A stretch of 64,000 bases of DNA from Shigella phage ESh24, in the sequence record ON528734; one strand, given 5' to 3'. The first letter of the stretch is position 1, and each line of letters starts with the position of its first letter. The notes under the pieces are model-generated. The model ran no database searches. It saw nothing but the letters and a program-made list of their open reading frames with translations, and had not been told where the DNA came from. Shown here in pieces: positions 30,453 to 61,929 of this stretch. A program made the position numbers and the translations under genes.

Positions 30453-30482
30453 GTTTACTTTTCCTCTTGACTGTGGTATAAT
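30453..30482 (+). promoter_or_regulatory. early promoter (GTTTAC -35, TGGTATAAT extended -10) for regB
   Basis: Well-spaced -35/-10; the -10 lies in the loop of an 11-bp inverted repeat (30463-30501) whose 3' arm contains the regB SD aagaggag. Confidence 0.6.
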
Positions 30483-31524: not shown

Positions 31525-31864
31525 AATTTTGGTTTTATGTATAGGATTAATTTCATTTTCTGCTTCTGCATCAGCAGATACATCATATACTGAAATTAGA
31601 GAATATGTAAACCGCACTGCGGCAGATTATTGTGGGAAAAATAAAGCATGCCAAGCTGAATTTGCACAGAAATTAATATATGCATATAAAGATGGAGAAA
31701 GAGATAAATCAAGCAGATACAAAAACGATACATTATTAAAACGATATGCTAAAAAGTGGAATACCTTAGAATGTTCAGTTGCGGAGGAGAAAGATAAAGC
31801 CGCTTGTCATTCAATGGTTGACCGTTTGGTAGATTCTTATAATCGAGGATTGAGTACTAGATGA
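31517..31864 (+). CDS. secreted hypothetical protein (possible vs counterpart)
   Basis: 115 aa with signal peptide MTKILVLCIGLISFSASASA; four Cys. Confidence 0.55.
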   Translation: MTKILVLCIGLISFSASASADTSYTEIREYVNRTAADYCGKNKACQAEFAQKLIYAYKDGERDKSSRYKNDTLLKRYAKKWNTLECSVAEEKDKAACHSMVDRLVDSYNRGLSTR

Positions 31865-32340
31865 TTGTAAAATATATCAAGGGCGATATTGTCGCCCTAT
31901 TTCTTCAAGGTAATATTATTGCGCACGGGTGCAATTGTTTTCATACAATGGGCAGTGGTGTAGCTGGTCAATTAGCAAGAGCCTATCCCAAAATTTTAGA
32001 AATAGATAAGACCACAACTGAATATGGTTCGCGTGAAAAACTCGGTGATATGTCTATTGTTTTTAAACATAAACCTAATGGTTTTGGCATATGTTATAAC
32101 TTGTATACGCAATACGAACCAGGTCCTAATCTTGATTATGGTGCTTTAGTAAACTGTATGATAGAATTAAATCTACAGGCAGAAACCCTTTTGTTTAAAC
32201 CGATAATTTACATTCCACGCATAGGTTGTGGTATTGCTGGCGGCGATTGGGATAAAGTTTCTAAATTAATCGACATGTTTACTCCTGATATTGATTTAAT
32301 AGTGGTGGATTATGAAAGTACATTACCCGCATCCGTTTGA
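31861..32340 (+). CDS. macro-domain-like protein (ADP-ribose binding/processing fold)
   Basis: 159 aa; IKGDIV…NIIAHGCNCFHTMGSGVAGQLA resembles the TARG1/OARD1-type macro-domain motif. Confidence 0.5.
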   Translation: MIVKYIKGDIVALFLQGNIIAHGCNCFHTMGSGVAGQLARAYPKILEIDKTTTEYGSREKLGDMSIVFKHKPNGFGICYNLYTQYEPGPNLDYGALVNCMIELNLQAETLLFKPIIYIPRIGCGIAGGDWDKVSKLIDMFTPDIDLIVVDYESTLPASV

Positions 32341-32524
32341 TCCTAAAAACAAAGCAGTAATTATTCGTCAATGGGAACGCATTTGCCGTACTAAATGTCC
32401 AATTAATAGTCCACATGATGTAGATAAAGACTACATTGGAACATTCGTTGAATATACCTTTATTGATAAGAAAGGTCGTAAACAACATGTAGAAGAATAT
32501 TGCTTAAAGGTTACATGGTTATGA
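32312..32524 (+). CDS. small hypothetical protein
   Basis: 70 aa; RBS ggtgga; overlaps end of the previous gene in another frame. Confidence 0.4.
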   Translation: MKVHYPHPFDPKNKAVIIRQWERICRTKCPINSPHDVDKDYIGTFVEYTFIDKKGRKQHVEEYCLKVTWL

Positions 32525-32727
32525 GCCAAACTAATATTCTTAAAAATGCCCACTGTGAAAAGTGTAAGTGGCCGGTTGTTTTTGCTTTATGCAACGATGA
32601 AATGGCTTGTGATTTCGATTATTGGTGCTATTGTTCTAATAAAGGATGCATCAATCATAAAGGTGAAGGATTTTATTCAGGATTTTATCCTTATCCTGAT
32701 TTCGTTAAAGAAGGTAAACCAAAATGA
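32515..32727 (+). CDS. Cys-rich small protein (putative metal-binding)
   Basis: ~70 aa with 9 Cys (CEKCKW…CNDEMACDFDYWCYCSNKGC); six-frame start at 32500 is TTG, ATG at 32515/32521. Confidence 0.5.
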   Translation: MVMSQTNILKNAHCEKCKWPVVFALCNDEMACDFDYWCYCSNKGCINHKGEGFYSGFYPYPDFVKEGKPK

Positions 32728-32897
32728 ATAGTTTTGAGTTACAATACGAAGTGTTACGTGAGCTTGATAATTTAATTGAACTCGCTGTTAATAAAGGTTT
32801 TGCCATTGGAATCGGTCAAAAAGATACTGGTCATTTAACTATGGAAATATTTAAGCAAAAGCGAATTATTTTAAAACTCCTGGAAATTAATATATGA
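32724..32897 (+). CDS. small hypothetical protein
   Basis: 57 aa; ATGA overlaps on both sides. Confidence 0.4.
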   Translation: MNSFELQYEVLRELDNLIELAVNKGFAIGIGQKDTGHLTMEIFKQKRIILKLLEINI

Positions 32898-33079
32898 GTC
32901 TGAGTAAAGAACAAAAAGATAAATTGTTTGAGCTTATTCATGAACTTCTAGATGAGCATATAGAAGCAAACACCTTTTATGATGAATACGGCCCGCTATC
33001 TCCAGAACAGCAGGAAGAATTTGCTGATCGGTTTGATAAGAAAGAAAACGAATTAATAGCTTATGTGAATACGCTTTAA
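32894..33079 (+). CDS. small acidic helical protein
   Basis: 61 aa, MSLSKEQKDKLFELIHELLDEH…. Confidence 0.5.
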   Translation: MSLSKEQKDKLFELIHELLDEHIEANTFYDEYGPLSPEQQEEFADRFDKKENELIAYVNTL

Positions 33080-33088
33080 GAAGGTGAT

Positions 33089-33670
33089 ATGGCGAGTTTA
33101 ATTTTTACTTATGCAGCAATGAATGCTGGAAAATCTGCTTCTCTTTTGACTGCTGCACATAATTATAAAGAGCGTGGAATGAGTGTATTAGTTCTTAAGC
33201 CTGCTATTGATACTCGCGATTCTGTCTGTGAAGTCGTTTCTCGCATTGGAATTAAGCAGGAAGCGAATATTATTACAGATGATATGGACATTTTCGAATT
33301 CTATAAATGGGCTGAAGCACAAAAAGATATTCATTGCGTATTTGTAGATGAAGCTCAGTTTTTAAAAACTGAACAGGTGCACCAATTAAGCCGAATTGTT
33401 GATACATATAATGTTCCTGTTATGGCTTATGGATTAAGGACTGATTTCGCTGGAAAATTGTTTGAAGGTTCTAAAGAACTTTTAGCGATTGCAGATAAAC
33501 TTATTGAACTAAAGGCAGTTTGTCATTGCGGCAAAAAAGCGATTATGACAGCTCGATTAATGGAAGATGGAACACCAGTTAAAGAAGGTAATCAAATCTG
33601 TATTGGTGATGAAATTTATGTTTCTTTGTGTAGAAAACATTGGAATGAATTAACTAAAAAGCTTGGTTAG
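33089..33670 (+). CDS. tk: thymidine kinase
   Basis: 193 aa; P-loop AAMNAGKSASLL; C-terminal Zn ribbon cysteines; same length as T4 Tk. Confidence 0.93.
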   Translation: MASLIFTYAAMNAGKSASLLTAAHNYKERGMSVLVLKPAIDTRDSVCEVVSRIGIKQEANIITDDMDIFEFYKWAEAQKDIHCVFVDEAQFLKTEQVHQLSRIVDTYNVPVMAYGLRTDFAGKLFEGSKELLAIADKLIELKAVCHCGKKAIMTARLMEDGTPVKEGNQICIGDEIYVSLCRKHWNELTKKLG

Positions 33671-60404: not shown

Positions 60405-61364
60405 ATGATTACCGTAAATGAAAAAGAACACATTCTTGAACAGAAATATCGTCCATCTACTATCGATGAATGTATTCTTCCCGCCTTTGATAAAGAAACC
60501 TTTAAATCTATTACAAGTAAAGGTAAAATTCCACATATTATTCTTCATTCTCCTTCTCCAGGAACAGGTAAAACAACTGTAGCGAAAGCATTGTGTCATG
60601 ATGTAAATGCTGATATGATGTTTGTGAATGGATCAGATTGTAAAATTGATTTCGTTCGTGGTCCTTTGACTAATTTTGCCAGCGCCGCTTCATTTGATGG
60701 TCGTCAAAAAGTAATCGTTATTGATGAATTTGACCGCTCAGGATTAGCAGAGTCTCAGCGACATCTTCGCTCCTTTATGGAAGCTTATAGTTCAAACTGT
60801 AGTATTATTATTACTGCTAACAATATTGATGGTATTATTAAACCACTTCAGTCACGCTGTCGAGTTATTACATTCGGTCAACCGACCGATGAAGATAAAA
60901 TTGAAATGATGAAGCAGATGATTCGTCGATTGACTGAAATCTGTAAACATGAAGGTATTGCTATAGCTGATATGAAAGTTGTAGCAGCTTTGGTTAAAAA
61001 GAATTTTCCTGATTTTCGTAAAACTATTGGCGAGCTCGATAGTTATTCATCTAAAGGTGTTTTGGATGCTGGTATTTTATCACTGGTTACTAACGATCGT
61101 GGTGCTATTGATGATGTTCTTGAGTCTCTCAAAAATAAAGATGTTAAACAACTCAGAGCTTTAGCACCAAAATATGCAGCCGATTATTCGTGGTTCGTTG
61201 GTAAACTTGCCGAAGAAATCTATACACGTGTAACACCACAGAGTATTATTCGTATGTACGAAATTGTCGGCGAAAATAATCAGTATCATGGTATTGCAGC
61301 TAATATTGAATTGCATCTAGCTTATCTTTTCATTCAGTTAGCATGTGAAATGCAGTGGAAGTGA
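60405..61364 (+). CDS. 44: clamp loader large subunit
   Basis: 319 aa from ATG 60405, [27 protein letters not shown]…; Walker [11 protein letters not shown]. Confidence 0.95.
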
Positions 61365-61365
61365 T

Positions 61366-61929
61366 ATGAGCTTATTTGAAGATGATATTCAATTAAACGA
61401 GCATCAAGTTGCTTGGTATTCTAAAGATTGGACAGCTGTCCAATCCGCTGCTGATTCTTTTAAAGAAAAAGCTGAAAATGAGTTTTTTGAAATAATTGGA
61501 GCTATTAATAATAAAACTAAATGCTCTATTGCTCAAAAAGATTATTCAAAATACATGGTTGAAAATGCATTATCACAATTTCCAGAGTGCATGCCAGCTG
61601 TATATGCTATGAATTTAATTGGATCAGGCTTAAGTGATGAAGCCCATTTTAATTATCTAATGGCTGCAGTTCCTCGTGGTAAAAGATATGGTAAATGGGC
61701 AAAACTAGTTGAAGATTCCACCGAAGTATTGATTATTAAGTTACTTGCTAAACGGTATCAAGTTAATACAAATGATGCAATTAACTATAAATCAATTCTT
61801 ACTAAAAATGGAAAACTTCCTTTAGTATTAAAAGAACTAAAAGGTTTAGTCACGGATGATTTTTTGAAAGAAGTGACTAAGAACGTAAAAGAACAGAAAC
61901 AACTCAAAAAACTAGCATTGGAATGGTAA
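61366..61929 (+). CDS. 62: clamp loader small subunit
   Basis: 187 aa from ATG 61366, [22 protein letters not shown]…; same length as T4 gp62. Confidence 0.9.

What the first reader, a model, noticed from the sequence alone, without database searches (positions are those of the whole stretch)
31861..32340. Macro-domain-like protein in an early-gene block
The 159-aa product has the arrangement GDIV…(10)…NIIAHGCNCFHTMGSGVAGQLA. This resembles the substrate-binding loop of TARG1/OARD1-type macro domains (…AHCISEDCRMGAGIA…), which bind and hydrolyse ADP-ribose conjugates. A phage macro-domain enzyme could reverse ADP-ribosylation imposed by host defence toxins, or trim modifications made by the phage's own ADP-ribosyltransferases.
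Basis: inference. Interest (0 to 1): 0.6.

Follow-up and report, generated by a model that had tools for sequence, protein, structure and literature searches.

The report
T4-like phage macrodomain Tk.4/AdfM allele
The gene is a real macro-domain enzyme, a divergent allele of phage T4 gene tk.4 (recently renamed adfM), which in T4 protects the phage from the DNA-ADP-ribosylating DarTG2 defence; this role is already published, so the find is correct but ordinary.

Summary
The ORF at 31861-32340 (+) exists and encodes a 159-aa macro-domain protein. It matches Pfam Macro above threshold. The AlphaFold2 model has pLDDT 94, and its best structural match is human TARG1.

The window is a Tequatrovirus (T4-like) genome. 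The gene lies between vs and tk.3, where T4 has tk.4. T4 tk.4 has long been annotated as an "A1pp phosphatase motif" protein. A 2025 preprint showed that deleting it sensitises T4 to DarTG2 and renamed it AdfM.

Three details go beyond the T4 annotation and the AdfM preprint:
- **Divergent allele.** The protein is only 57% identical to T4 AdfM, although the flanking DNA is 98-100% identical. It is a sharply bounded allelic cassette. About 312 phage records carry this allele and about 377 carry the T4 type.
- **Different catalytic residues.** The catalytic Lys of TARG1 and DarG is an invariant Gln here (Q84), and TARG1 D125 is Ala. The residues proven essential in Streptomyces SCO6735 are all conserved. 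SCO6735 is a Gln-type macrodomain that removes ADP-ribose from thymidine in DNA.
- **A second proven activity in the family.** A homologue 39% identical, Adpp of Vibrio phage Gary, is an ADPR-1''-phosphate phosphatase.

The biochemical substrate of this allele remains inferred.

The parts
31861..32340 (+). tk.4 / adfM coding sequence: 159-aa single-domain macrodomain protein (stop codon included)
   Evidence: ORF; Pfam Macro; PHROG 335 at 5.7e-71; AF2 pLDDT 94; Foldseek TARG1/BT1257/Poa1p/DarG; same locus as T4 tk.4, between vs and tk.3.
31845..31848 (+). GAGG Shine-Dalgarno-like motif 12 nt upstream of the ATG. The ATG overlaps the vs stop codon (ATGA), which suggests translational coupling.
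   Evidence: Read directly from the sequence. Function is inferred.
31924..31977 (+). Codons 22-39, HGCNCFHTMGSGVAGQLA: ADP-ribose-binding loop 1. H22, G23, N25, C26, G33 and A35 are invariant. N25 aligns to DarG N22 and SCO6735 N27; H22 aligns to SCO6735 H24 and Poa1p H23.
   Evidence: Family alignment; profile alignments to PDB sequences.
32098..32112 (+). Codons 80-84, NLYTQ: catalytic strand. Invariant Q84 (32110-32112) occupies the position of TARG1 K84, DarG K80 and SCO6735 Q85.
   Evidence: Q85A abolishes SCO6735 activity (PMC9411070).
32215..32250 (+). Codons 119-130, PRIGCGIAGGDW: phosphate-binding loop 2. G122 and G124 align to SCO6735 G126 and G128. A126 occupies the position of TARG1 D125.
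31899..32335 (+). Allelic-replacement segment. Nucleotide identity to T4 is 45-82% here, against 97-100% in the flanks over the preceding 1.3 kb (regB body, vs.1, vs) and 100% in tk.3 at 32396-32455.
   Evidence: Pairwise alignment and sliding identity. Protein identity 57%. Allele counts 312 and 377 phage records.
31880..31898 (+). Perfect 8-bp hairpin AGGGCGATATTGTCGCCCT inside codons 7-13, followed by ATTTCTT. It is terminator-like, and its 3' end coincides with the left edge of the divergent segment.
   Evidence: Consensus scan; RNA MFE -12.9 kcal/mol; boundary. Function unknown.
30454..30482 (+). Best sigma-70-like promoter match upstream of the co-directional cluster (TTTACT-17-TATAAT with TG), just before regB. 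A candidate early promoter that could also drive tk.4.
   Evidence: Consensus scan only. The number of matches in the region is not above the shuffle expectation, so this is weak.

Best explanation
The gene is the tk.4/adfM orthologue of a T4-like phage: a stand-alone macrodomain ADP-ribosyl hydrolase made before DNA replication.

Most likely mechanism: when the host toxin DarT2 attaches ADP-ribose to thymidine in single-stranded phage DNA, which blocks replication, the protein binds the ADP-ribose in its two Gly-rich loops. It then cleaves the C1''-N3(thymine) bond, releasing free ADP-ribose and restoring the base.

The chemistry should follow the Gln-type route described for Streptomyces SCO6735, not the Lys(-Asp) route of TARG1 and DarG. 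In that route Q84, held by N25, positions the distal ribose, and a backbone-held water starts the reaction.

Shown here: the macro fold, orthology with T4 tk.4, and conservation of the SCO6735-validated residues. Shown by others, for the 57%-identical T4 protein only: genetic protection against DarTG2. Inferred: that this allele does the same, that protection is enzymatic, and the catalytic route.
For: - Macro fold: Pfam, AF2 pLDDT 94, Foldseek TARG1/BT1257/Poa1p/DarG at probability 1.00.
- Orthology: the window is a Tequatrovirus, 99.6% identical to Shigella phage Phaginator over this gene. The gene lies between vs and tk.3, as T4 tk.4 does. Flanking DNA is 98-100% identical to T4. A rough NJ tree puts this allele and the T4 allele in one T-even clade that shares a 10-residue loop, Q[YF]xPGPNxxY.
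- Function of the orthologue: T4 tk.4 was the only significant hit on DarTG2 cells, and its knockout is DarTG2-sensitive. T4 and T2 lacking adfN remain DarTG2-resistant, as does T4 lacking both adfA and adfN, which pointed to a further factor.
- Catalytic plausibility without the Lys: SCO6735 has Gln85 at that position, removes DarT-made ADP-ribose from thymidine and rescues cells from DarT. Its Q85A mutant is dead and N27S and G128E are strongly impaired. The equivalents H22, N25, Q84, G122 and G124 are invariant across 95 family members.
- The PADLOC DarG model is the only defence-library hit (3.3e-7).
- A different, DarG-type phage macrodomain (PhiKZ gp104) has been shown biochemically to strip DarT2 marks from DNA, so the strategy exists in phages.
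Against: - No biochemistry exists for T4 Tk.4 or for this allele. The preprint itself says only 'it seems likely'.
- This allele is only 57% identical to the tested protein, and 24-38% identical in residues 46-79 and 131-155.
- The two lysines implicated in substrate handling in SCO6735 (K34, K89) are not conserved: S32 replaces K34, and the loop after Q84 is 5 residues shorter with no basic residue. The protein is acidic (pI 5.3 against 9.5 for SCO6735).
- A family member 39% identical with the same catalytic residues is a proven ADPR-1''-phosphate phosphatase. The residues therefore do not discriminate between substrates.
Confidence: 0.6

Rival explanations
1. The main substrate is a small molecule. 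The protein would be an ADPR-1''-phosphate phosphatase (Adpp/Poa1p-like), or a hydrolase of other soluble ADP-ribose derivatives, that converts products of host NAD+-targeting defences such as aRES into plain ADP-ribose.
For: - The RefSeq T4 annotation is 'phosphatase; contains A1pp phosphatase motif', and PHROG 335 is labelled 'phosphatase'.
- Vibrio phage Gary Adpp converts ADPR-1P to ADPR in vitro and is required in the Adps-Adpp-Namat operon to beat aRES.
- Gary's protein is 98.7% identical to Cilsick gp173, which is 39% identical to the window protein with the same H/N/Q/G residues.
- H22 and T29 align to Poa1p H23 and S30, the residues mutated in PDB entries 6lfs and 6lft.
- Both substrates carry their leaving group on C1'' of the distal ribose, so one site could handle both (inference).
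Against: - There are no Adps or Namat genes in the window (no tblastn hit below E = 0.2). Without NARP1, making ADP-ribose from ADPR-1P does not rebuild NAD+.
- The NARP1-linked proteins branch outside the T-even clade and have a 15-17-residue loop after the Gln, against 10 here.
- The T4 orthologue has a DarTG2 phenotype.
Confidence: 0.15
2. The protein protects against DarT2 mainly without catalysis. It would bind and inhibit the toxin, or bind and shield ADP-ribosylated DNA.
For: Catalytically dead SCO6735 Q85A, DarG K80A and TARG1 K84A all inhibit DarT in vitro, and SCO6735 does so most strongly. The hypervariable surface segment 46-79, which shuffles independently between lineages, could be a protein-contact surface under arms-race selection (inference).
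Against: All residues needed for catalysis in SCO6735 are invariant across 95 diverse family members, which argues that catalysis is selected. The protein lacks the C-terminal DarT-binding domain of DarG: it is 159 aa against a 338-position DarG model, and only the macro part matches.
Confidence: 0.07
3. It reverses protein ADP-ribosylation, either marks written by the phage's own Alt/ModA/ModB enzymes or marks written by host toxin ADP-ribosyltransferases.
For: TARG1 and SCO6735 also hydrolyse protein (Glu-linked) ADP-ribose. T4-like phages encode three ADP-ribosyltransferases (general knowledge; reference list).
Against: Alt, ModA and ModB modify arginine (general knowledge), a linkage the ALC1/TARG1-like class is not known to cleave. 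The T4 transposon screen found tk.4 dispensable on plain K-12 and specifically needed on DarTG2.
Confidence: 0.06
4. It reverses RNA base ADP-ribosylation, for example on uracil, imposed by RNA-targeting defence transferases.
For: TARG1, DarG and SCO6735 all remove ADP-ribose from uracil in ssRNA. An mRNA-ADP-ribosylating defence (CmdTAC) acts on T-even phages (abstract of PMC11618068).
Against: CmdT modifies adenine, and that mark is described as irreversible. T-even phages are sensitive to CmdTAC despite carrying tk.4. There is no direct evidence.
Confidence: 0.04

Closest known systems
Phage T4 Tk.4 = AdfM (anti-DarT factor Macrodomain), NP_049723, T4 60922-61389
   Same: Same locus (vs / tk.4 / tk.3) with flanks 98-100% identical in DNA. 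Single macro domain of about 155 aa. Same invariant H22, N25, N80, Q84, G122, G124 and W130, and the same short Q[YF]xPGPNxxY loop.
   Different: Only 57% amino-acid identity: 84% in residues 1-45 but 24-38% in 46-79 and 131-155. Loop 2 here is the family-consensus GCGIAGG, whereas T4 has GAGIGKG. A 13-nt deletion gives a 4-residue longer C-terminus that overlaps tk.3 by 29 nt. This allele is untested.
Streptomyces coelicolor SCO6735 (PDB 5e3b) and Bacteroides BT1257 (2afc/2fg1): Gln-type ALC1-like macrodomains
   Same: Gln at the catalytic-Lys position. Conserved His-x-x-Asn, G-C-G and AGG-W motifs. BT1257 is the best PDB sequence match (2.7e-19). SCO6735 removes DarT-made thymidine ADP-ribose.
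   Different: Low sequence identity (26% to BT1257 in the Foldseek alignment). The mobile loop after the Gln is 5-6 residues shorter here and has no lysines. SCO6735 K34 is Ser here. The window protein is acidic rather than basic. It is phage-borne rather than chromosomal.
Human TARG1/OARD1 (PDB 4j5r/4j5s)
   Same: Best structural match (TM 0.72-0.81). TARG1 also removes thymidine-linked ADP-ribose.
   Different: The catalytic dyad is absent: K84 is Q84 and D125 is A126. TARG1 S35 is N25 here. About 20% identity.
DarG antitoxin macrodomain (PDB 5m3i, 5m31) and PhiKZ gp104 'AdfM' (DarG-type phage macrodomain)
   Same: Macro fold, a conserved active-site Asn (DarG N22 / PhiKZ N23 = N25 here), and the same biological target (DarT2) for the T4 orthologue.
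   Different: Those proteins carry the FPTK motif with catalytic K80/K78, whereas here the motif is NLYTQ. There is no DarT-binding C-terminal domain. The NCBIfam DarG equivalog scores 28 bits against a cut-off of 250. They form a separate clade in the tree. Two unrelated phage macrodomain lineages now share the name AdfM.
Adpp, the NARP1-associated ADPR-1''-phosphate phosphatase of Vibrio phage Gary (KNV71_gp137)
   Same: Same family by reciprocal tblastn: the window protein finds Cilsick gp173 at 2e-19, and gp173 as a query recovers about the same roughly 2,700 phage records. 39% identity with the same H/N/Q/G residues.
   Different: Encoded between Adps and Namat, which the window lacks. 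Has a 17-residue loop after the Gln. Branches outside the T-even clade.

Membership tests
Macro domain superfamily (Pfam PF01661) | Profile score above the curated gathering threshold | tested here: met
   34.2 bits against a cut-off of 22, E = 2.6e-8, profile positions 2-117 of 118.
Macro domain superfamily (Pfam PF01661) | Three-layer alpha/beta macro fold | tested here: met
   AF2 pLDDT 94, pTM 0.89, with alternating strands and helices. The named Foldseek top hits are macro domains, apart from serine hydrolases designed on such scaffolds, at probability 1.00 and TM about 0.7-0.8.
Macro domain superfamily (Pfam PF01661) | Two Gly-rich ADP-ribose/phosphate-binding loops | tested here: met
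   MGSGVAG (30-36) and IGCGIAGG (121-128) align to the corresponding loops of TARG1, BT1257, SCO6735 and DarG. G33, G122 and G124 are invariant.
TARG1/OARD1-type hydrolase | Catalytic Lys84-Asp125 dyad | tested here: not met
   Q84 and A126 occupy those columns, and Q84 is invariant in 95 family members.
DarG antitoxin (NCBIfam NF048014 equivalog) | Score above the equivalog cut-off | tested here: not met
   28.2 bits against a cut-off of 250. Only the macro part (model positions 2-142 of 338) matches.
DarG antitoxin (NCBIfam NF048014 equivalog) | Catalytic Lys80 in an FPTK motif | tested here: not met
   NLYTQ aligns to NFPTK, so Q84 stands in place of K80.
DarG antitoxin (NCBIfam NF048014 equivalog) | C-terminal DarT-binding domain and an adjacent darT gene | tested here: not met
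   The protein is 159 aa and consists of a single domain. Its neighbours are vs and tk.3.
Gln-type ALC1-like macrodomains (SCO6735 / BT1257 subclass) | Gln at the catalytic-Lys position, held by the conserved Asn, plus the G-x-G of loop 2 | tested here: met
   Q84 = Gln85, N25 = Asn27, G122/G124 = Gly126/Gly128, H22 = His24, all invariant. Their roles come from PMC9411070.
Gln-type ALC1-like macrodomains (SCO6735 / BT1257 subclass) | Extended mobile loop after the Gln, carrying lysines, said to distinguish this subclass | tested here: not met
   The loop from Q84 to Y93 is 10 residues (QYEPGPNLDY), as in TARG1 and DarG. It is 15-16 residues in SCO6735 and BT1257. There is no basic residue.
Gln-type ALC1-like macrodomains (SCO6735 / BT1257 subclass) | Hydrolysis of thymidine-linked ADP-ribose on ssDNA | not testable with these tools
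   Needs an enzyme assay. Only genetic evidence exists, and only for the T4 orthologue.
T4 Tk.4 / AdfM orthologous group | Conserved position between vs and tk.3 in a Tevenvirinae genome, and significant full-length similarity | tested here: met
   (2e-69, 57% identity over 155 aa, no gaps).
T4 Tk.4 / AdfM orthologous group | Protection of the phage against DarTG2 | not testable with these tools
   Shown for T4 only.
Adpp (NARP1-AP ADPR-1P phosphatase) | Encoded within or next to an Adps-Namat operon | tested here: not met
   No Adps or Namat homologue in the 64-kb window. The neighbours are vs and tk.3. The rest of the genome was not available.
Adpp (NARP1-AP ADPR-1P phosphatase) | ADPR-1''-phosphate phosphatase activity | not testable with these tools
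   Needs LC-MS with purified protein. The positions mutated in the Poa1p structures, H23 and S30, are H22 and T29 here.

The most novel reading that the evidence does not exclude
The tk.4 alleles circulating in T4-like phages may not be interchangeable. This allele and the T4 allele are each present in several hundred sequenced phages. They sit as sharply bounded cassettes in otherwise near-identical DNA, and the 46-79 segment is hypervariable and shuffles independently. That pattern would fit balancing or diversifying selection. Under this reading, different alleles would handle different ADP-ribose linkages or different DarT2 variants. Alternatively, they would escape a host factor that recognises or inhibits the macrodomain.
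Probability: 0.12. Interest if true: 0.55.

Novelty: already known. Interest (0 to 1): 0.25.

Why it matters
DNA ADP-ribosylation by DarT toxins is a widespread anti-phage defence, and T-even phages stack several counter-measures against it (AdfA, AdfN, AdfM). Recognising this gene as an adfM allele explains a conserved 'hypothetical protein / phosphatase' in hundreds of therapeutic-candidate coliphage genomes. It also predicts that they resist DarTG2 hosts.

The points worth carrying forward are modest:
- The T-even AdfM lineage lacks the catalytic lysine of DarG and TARG1. It probably uses the SCO6735-type glutamine mechanism. It is therefore a different lineage from the PhiKZ protein that bears the same name.
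- The same family contains a proven ADPR-1''-phosphate phosphatase, so substrate assignment by homology alone is unsafe.
- The gene is exchanged between phages as a discrete cassette.

Tried and rejected
- **TARG1-type membership:** rejected, because the Lys/Asp dyad is absent.
- **DarG membership:** rejected, on the NCBIfam score, the missing Lys and the missing C-terminal domain.
- **NARP1 partners in the window:** none found, which weakens the Adpp reading.
- **First structure job:** It was rebuilt without that sequence.
- **3D check of Q84, N25 and the Gly loops:** not possible, because model coordinates are not exposed to scripts.
- **Poa1p structure paper:** looked for to learn the roles of H23 and S30, but it is not in the library. 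Only the PDB entry titles could be used.
- **Reviews on phage ADP-ribose systems:** searched for a prior statement on T4 Tk.4. They contain general statistics only, for example that 41% of myoviruses carry a macro domain.
- **dN/dS between the two alleles:** not attempted, because synonymous sites are saturated at 45-80% nucleotide identity.
- **Promoter scan:** gave no more matches than shuffled sequence, so it says little about timing of expression.
- **DarG sequence:** TARG1 was likewise checked against the PDB alignment.
Full report
**1. Observation**

The window holds an ATG-to-TGA ORF at 31861-32340 on the + strand, encoding 159 aa that begin MIVKYIKGDIVALFLQGNIIAHGCNCFHTMGSGVAGQLA. The quoted motif is present. 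The only slip is that GDIV and NIIAHG are separated by 6 residues, not 10. The start codon overlaps the stop of the upstream gene (ATGA), and a GAGG lies 12 nt upstream. The 3' end overlaps the next ORF by 29 nt.

**2. Is it a macro domain?**

Yes, by every test available.
- Pfam Macro (PF01661) matches end to end, above its curated threshold: 34.2 against 22 bits, E = 2.6e-8.
- The single sequence finds solved macro domains in the PDB: BT1257 1e-10, yeast Poa1p 1.5e-9, DarG 2e-5, TARG1 7e-3.
- A profile of 96 relatives raises these to 2.7e-19 (BT1257), 4.7e-17 (TARG1), 1.8e-15 (SCO6735), 6.4e-15 (Poa1p) and 3.2e-12 (DarG).
- An AlphaFold2 model built on 95 sequences has mean pLDDT 94.0 and pTM 0.89.
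- Foldseek against the PDB ranks TARG1 first (E = 2.7e-10, TM 0.72/0.81), followed by BT1257, Poa1p and DarG.

**3. Where the window comes from and which gene this is**

The gene is 99.6% identical in DNA to Shigella phage vB_SboM_Phaginator, a Tequatrovirus, and 581 phage records match it. In Phaginator and in T4 the neighbours are regB, vs.1 and vs upstream, and tk.3 through tk downstream. The gene therefore occupies the position of T4 tk.4. RefSeq annotates T4 tk.4 as 'phosphatase; Tk.4; contains A1pp phosphatase motif'. PHROG 335 ('phosphatase') matches at 5.7e-71. Other GenBank records call the homologue 'Appr-1-p processing protein', 'macro domain protein' or 'O-acetyl-ADP-ribose deacetylase'. 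Its macro-domain nature is thus already on public record.

**4. What is known about the orthologue**

A November 2025 preprint (HIDEN-SEQ, bioRxiv 10.1101/2025.11.20.689424) screened a T4 transposon library on E. coli expressing DarTG2. It found tk.4 as the single significant hit, and a clean knockout became DarTG2-sensitive. The authors renamed the gene adfM and proposed, without biochemistry, that it removes ADP-ribose from DNA. Earlier work had shown that T4 and T2 lacking adfN, and T4 lacking both adfA and adfN, stay DarTG2-resistant, and had predicted a further factor. A Cell Reports 2026 paper gave the same name, AdfM, to PhiKZ gp104. It showed in vitro that gp104 strips DarT2-made ADP-ribose from a TNTC oligonucleotide.

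**5. How this allele differs from T4's**

The protein is only 57% identical to T4 Tk.4, with no gaps over 155 aa. Identity by segment is:
- residues 1-45: 84%
- residues 80-96: 71%
- residues 118-130: 62%
- residues 97-117: 57%
- residues 46-79: 38%
- residues 131-155: 24%

At the DNA level the contrast with the surroundings is stark. Over the preceding 1.3 kb (regB body, vs.1 and vs), 60-nt windows are 97-100% identical to T4. Identity drops to 45-82% immediately after nucleotide 31898 and returns to 87-100% from about 32336. The gene body is therefore an allelic cassette swapped into an otherwise T4-identical background, not the product of divergence in place.

Both allele types are common. 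312 phage records carry this type over at least 80% of its length, and 377 carry the T4 type. Intermediate alleles of 62-81% identity also exist. Residues 46-79 shuffle independently: cluster P0005 is 95-100% identical to this protein in residues 80-130 but only 32% identical in 46-79.

**6. Active site**

The family profile was aligned to verified PDB sequences. In those alignments:
- invariant Q84 falls on TARG1 K84 and DarG K80
- A126 falls on TARG1 D125
- N25 falls on DarG N22

The protein is therefore neither a TARG1-type (Lys/Asp) nor a DarG-type (Lys) enzyme. It also fails the NCBIfam DarG equivalog, at 28 against 250 bits.

PhiKZ gp104, by contrast, has the DarG FPTK motif and groups with DarG. 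The two proteins called 'AdfM' belong to different macrodomain lineages.

The missing lysine has a precedent. Streptomyces SCO6735 has Gln85 at this position, yet it efficiently removes DarT-made ADP-ribose from thymidine and rescues cells from DarT. Its Q85A mutant is dead, and N27S and G128E are strongly impaired (PMC9411070). I retrieved the SCO6735 sequence. Its H24, N27, Q85, G126 and G128 correspond to H22, N25, Q84, G122 and G124 here, and all five are invariant in 95 family members.

The differences from SCO6735 are these:
- The extended lysine-bearing loop after the Gln is absent (10 residues here against 15-16).
- SCO6735 K34 is Ser here.
- The protein is acidic, with pI 5.3 against 9.5.

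How it would grip DNA is therefore unclear.

**7. A second experimentally grounded function in the same family**

While sampling distant homologues I saw the gene sitting between a 'ribose-phosphate pyrophosphokinase' and a 'nicotinate phosphoribosyltransferase' in Vibrio phage Cilsick. It sits next to the same pair in Pseudomonas phage B55. These two flanking genes are the Adps and Namat genes of the NAD+ reconstitution pathway NARP1.

A January 2026 preprint (bioRxiv 10.64898/2026.01.28.702374) showed that the macro protein in this position in Vibrio phage Gary, Adpp, converts ADPR-1''-phosphate to ADP-ribose. This lets NARP1 overcome the aRES defence. Gary's protein is 98.7% identical to Cilsick gp173, which is 39% identical to the window protein and has the same H/N/Q/G residues.

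The catalytic residues therefore cannot tell the two activities apart. Both substrates carry the leaving group on C1'' of the distal ribose, so dual activity is plausible (inference).

Several points argue against Adpp being the main role here:
- The window has no Adps or Namat.
- The NARP1-linked proteins branch outside the T-even clade and have a 15-17-residue loop after the Gln.
- The preprint counts 859 NARP1 pathways, of which 15% include a macro gene. The family itself is present in about 2,760 phage records.

**8. Verdict on mechanism**

The most likely reading (about 0.6) is that this is an AdfM orthologue that hydrolyses DarT2-installed ADP-ribose from thymidine in phage ssDNA by a Gln-type, SCO6735-like mechanism.

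- **Shown here:** the fold, orthology with T4 tk.4, and conservation of the validated residues.
- **Shown by others, for T4 only:** the DarTG2 phenotype.
- **Inferred:** activity of this allele, enzymatic rather than inhibitory action, and the catalytic route.

The rivals are ADPR-1P or other small-molecule processing (0.15), non-catalytic DarT2 inhibition (0.07), protein de-ADP-ribosylation (0.06) and RNA de-ADP-ribosylation (0.04).

**9. Novelty and interest**

The macro domain in T4 tk.4 has been annotated for two decades. Macro domains occur in 41% of myoviruses (PMC9503650). The anti-defence role has been published for the orthologue.

Three points are less obvious:
- the Gln-for-Lys active site, which separates T-even AdfM from DarG and PhiKZ AdfM
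- the coexistence of AdfM-type and Adpp-type functions in one family
- the cassette-like allelic polymorphism with a hypervariable 46-79 segment

The last point leaves room for allele-specific function, at a probability of about 0.12.

Noticed in passing
window 31880-31898 (+): A perfect 8-bp GC-rich hairpin (AGGGCGATATTGTCGCCCT, RNA MFE -12.9 kcal/mol) followed by ATTTCTT lies inside codons 7-13 of tk.4. It is identical in T4, and its 3' end is exactly where identity to T4 collapses. The Yersinia phage fPS-2 record lists a 'terminator' feature among those under the tk.4 match. It could be an attenuator, an RNA-stability element or a recombination boundary.
   Followed up: partly
window 32516-33099 (+): A second mosaic patch relative to T4, with 23-57% identity and many gaps, lies between tk.3 and tk. 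The window has three small ORFs: a Cys-rich protein of about 68-75 aa (PHROG 2306, 32500/32521-32727), a 57-aa protein (PHROG 3452, 32724-32897) and a 61-aa protein (PHROG 653, 32894-33079). T4 has tk.2 and tk.1 in this interval. All are of unknown function.
   Followed up: partly
window 31996-32097 (codons 46-79 of tk.4): This segment (helix 2 to the beta3-beta4 hairpin) is hypervariable across the family and recombines independently of the rest of the gene. Cluster P0005 is 95-100% identical to the window protein in residues 80-130 but only 32% identical here. No explanation was tested.
   Followed up: partly
L003 3132-6138 (Vibrio phage Cilsick); L004 1-3483 (Pseudomonas phage B55): Distant family members (39% identity) are embedded in or adjacent to Adps-Namat (NARP1) operons in two unrelated phage groups. 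The Cilsick protein is 98.7% identical to the characterised ADPR-1''-phosphate phosphatase Adpp of Vibrio phage Gary.
   Followed up: yes
window 32312-32340 (+): The tk.4 stop codon lies 29 nt inside tk.3, whereas in T4 the overlap is 4 nt. A 13-nt deletion relative to T4 causes this. The resulting C-terminal tail (STLPASV) has low confidence in the model: residues 157-159 have pLDDT below 50.
   Followed up: partly
literature: Two independent papers gave the name AdfM to non-orthologous phage macrodomains: T4 Tk.4 (Gln-type, NLYTQ) and PhiKZ gp104 (DarG-type, FPTK with K78). Annotation transfer by name would conflate them.
   Followed up: yes
window 30454-30482 (+): This is one of the two highest-scoring sigma-70-like matches on the + strand in the region (TTTACT-17-TATAAT, 10 of 12, the only one with an upstream TG). 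It lies just before regB and could drive the regB-vs.1-vs-tk.4 run. The overall number of promoter-like matches is no higher than in shuffled sequence.
   Followed up: no
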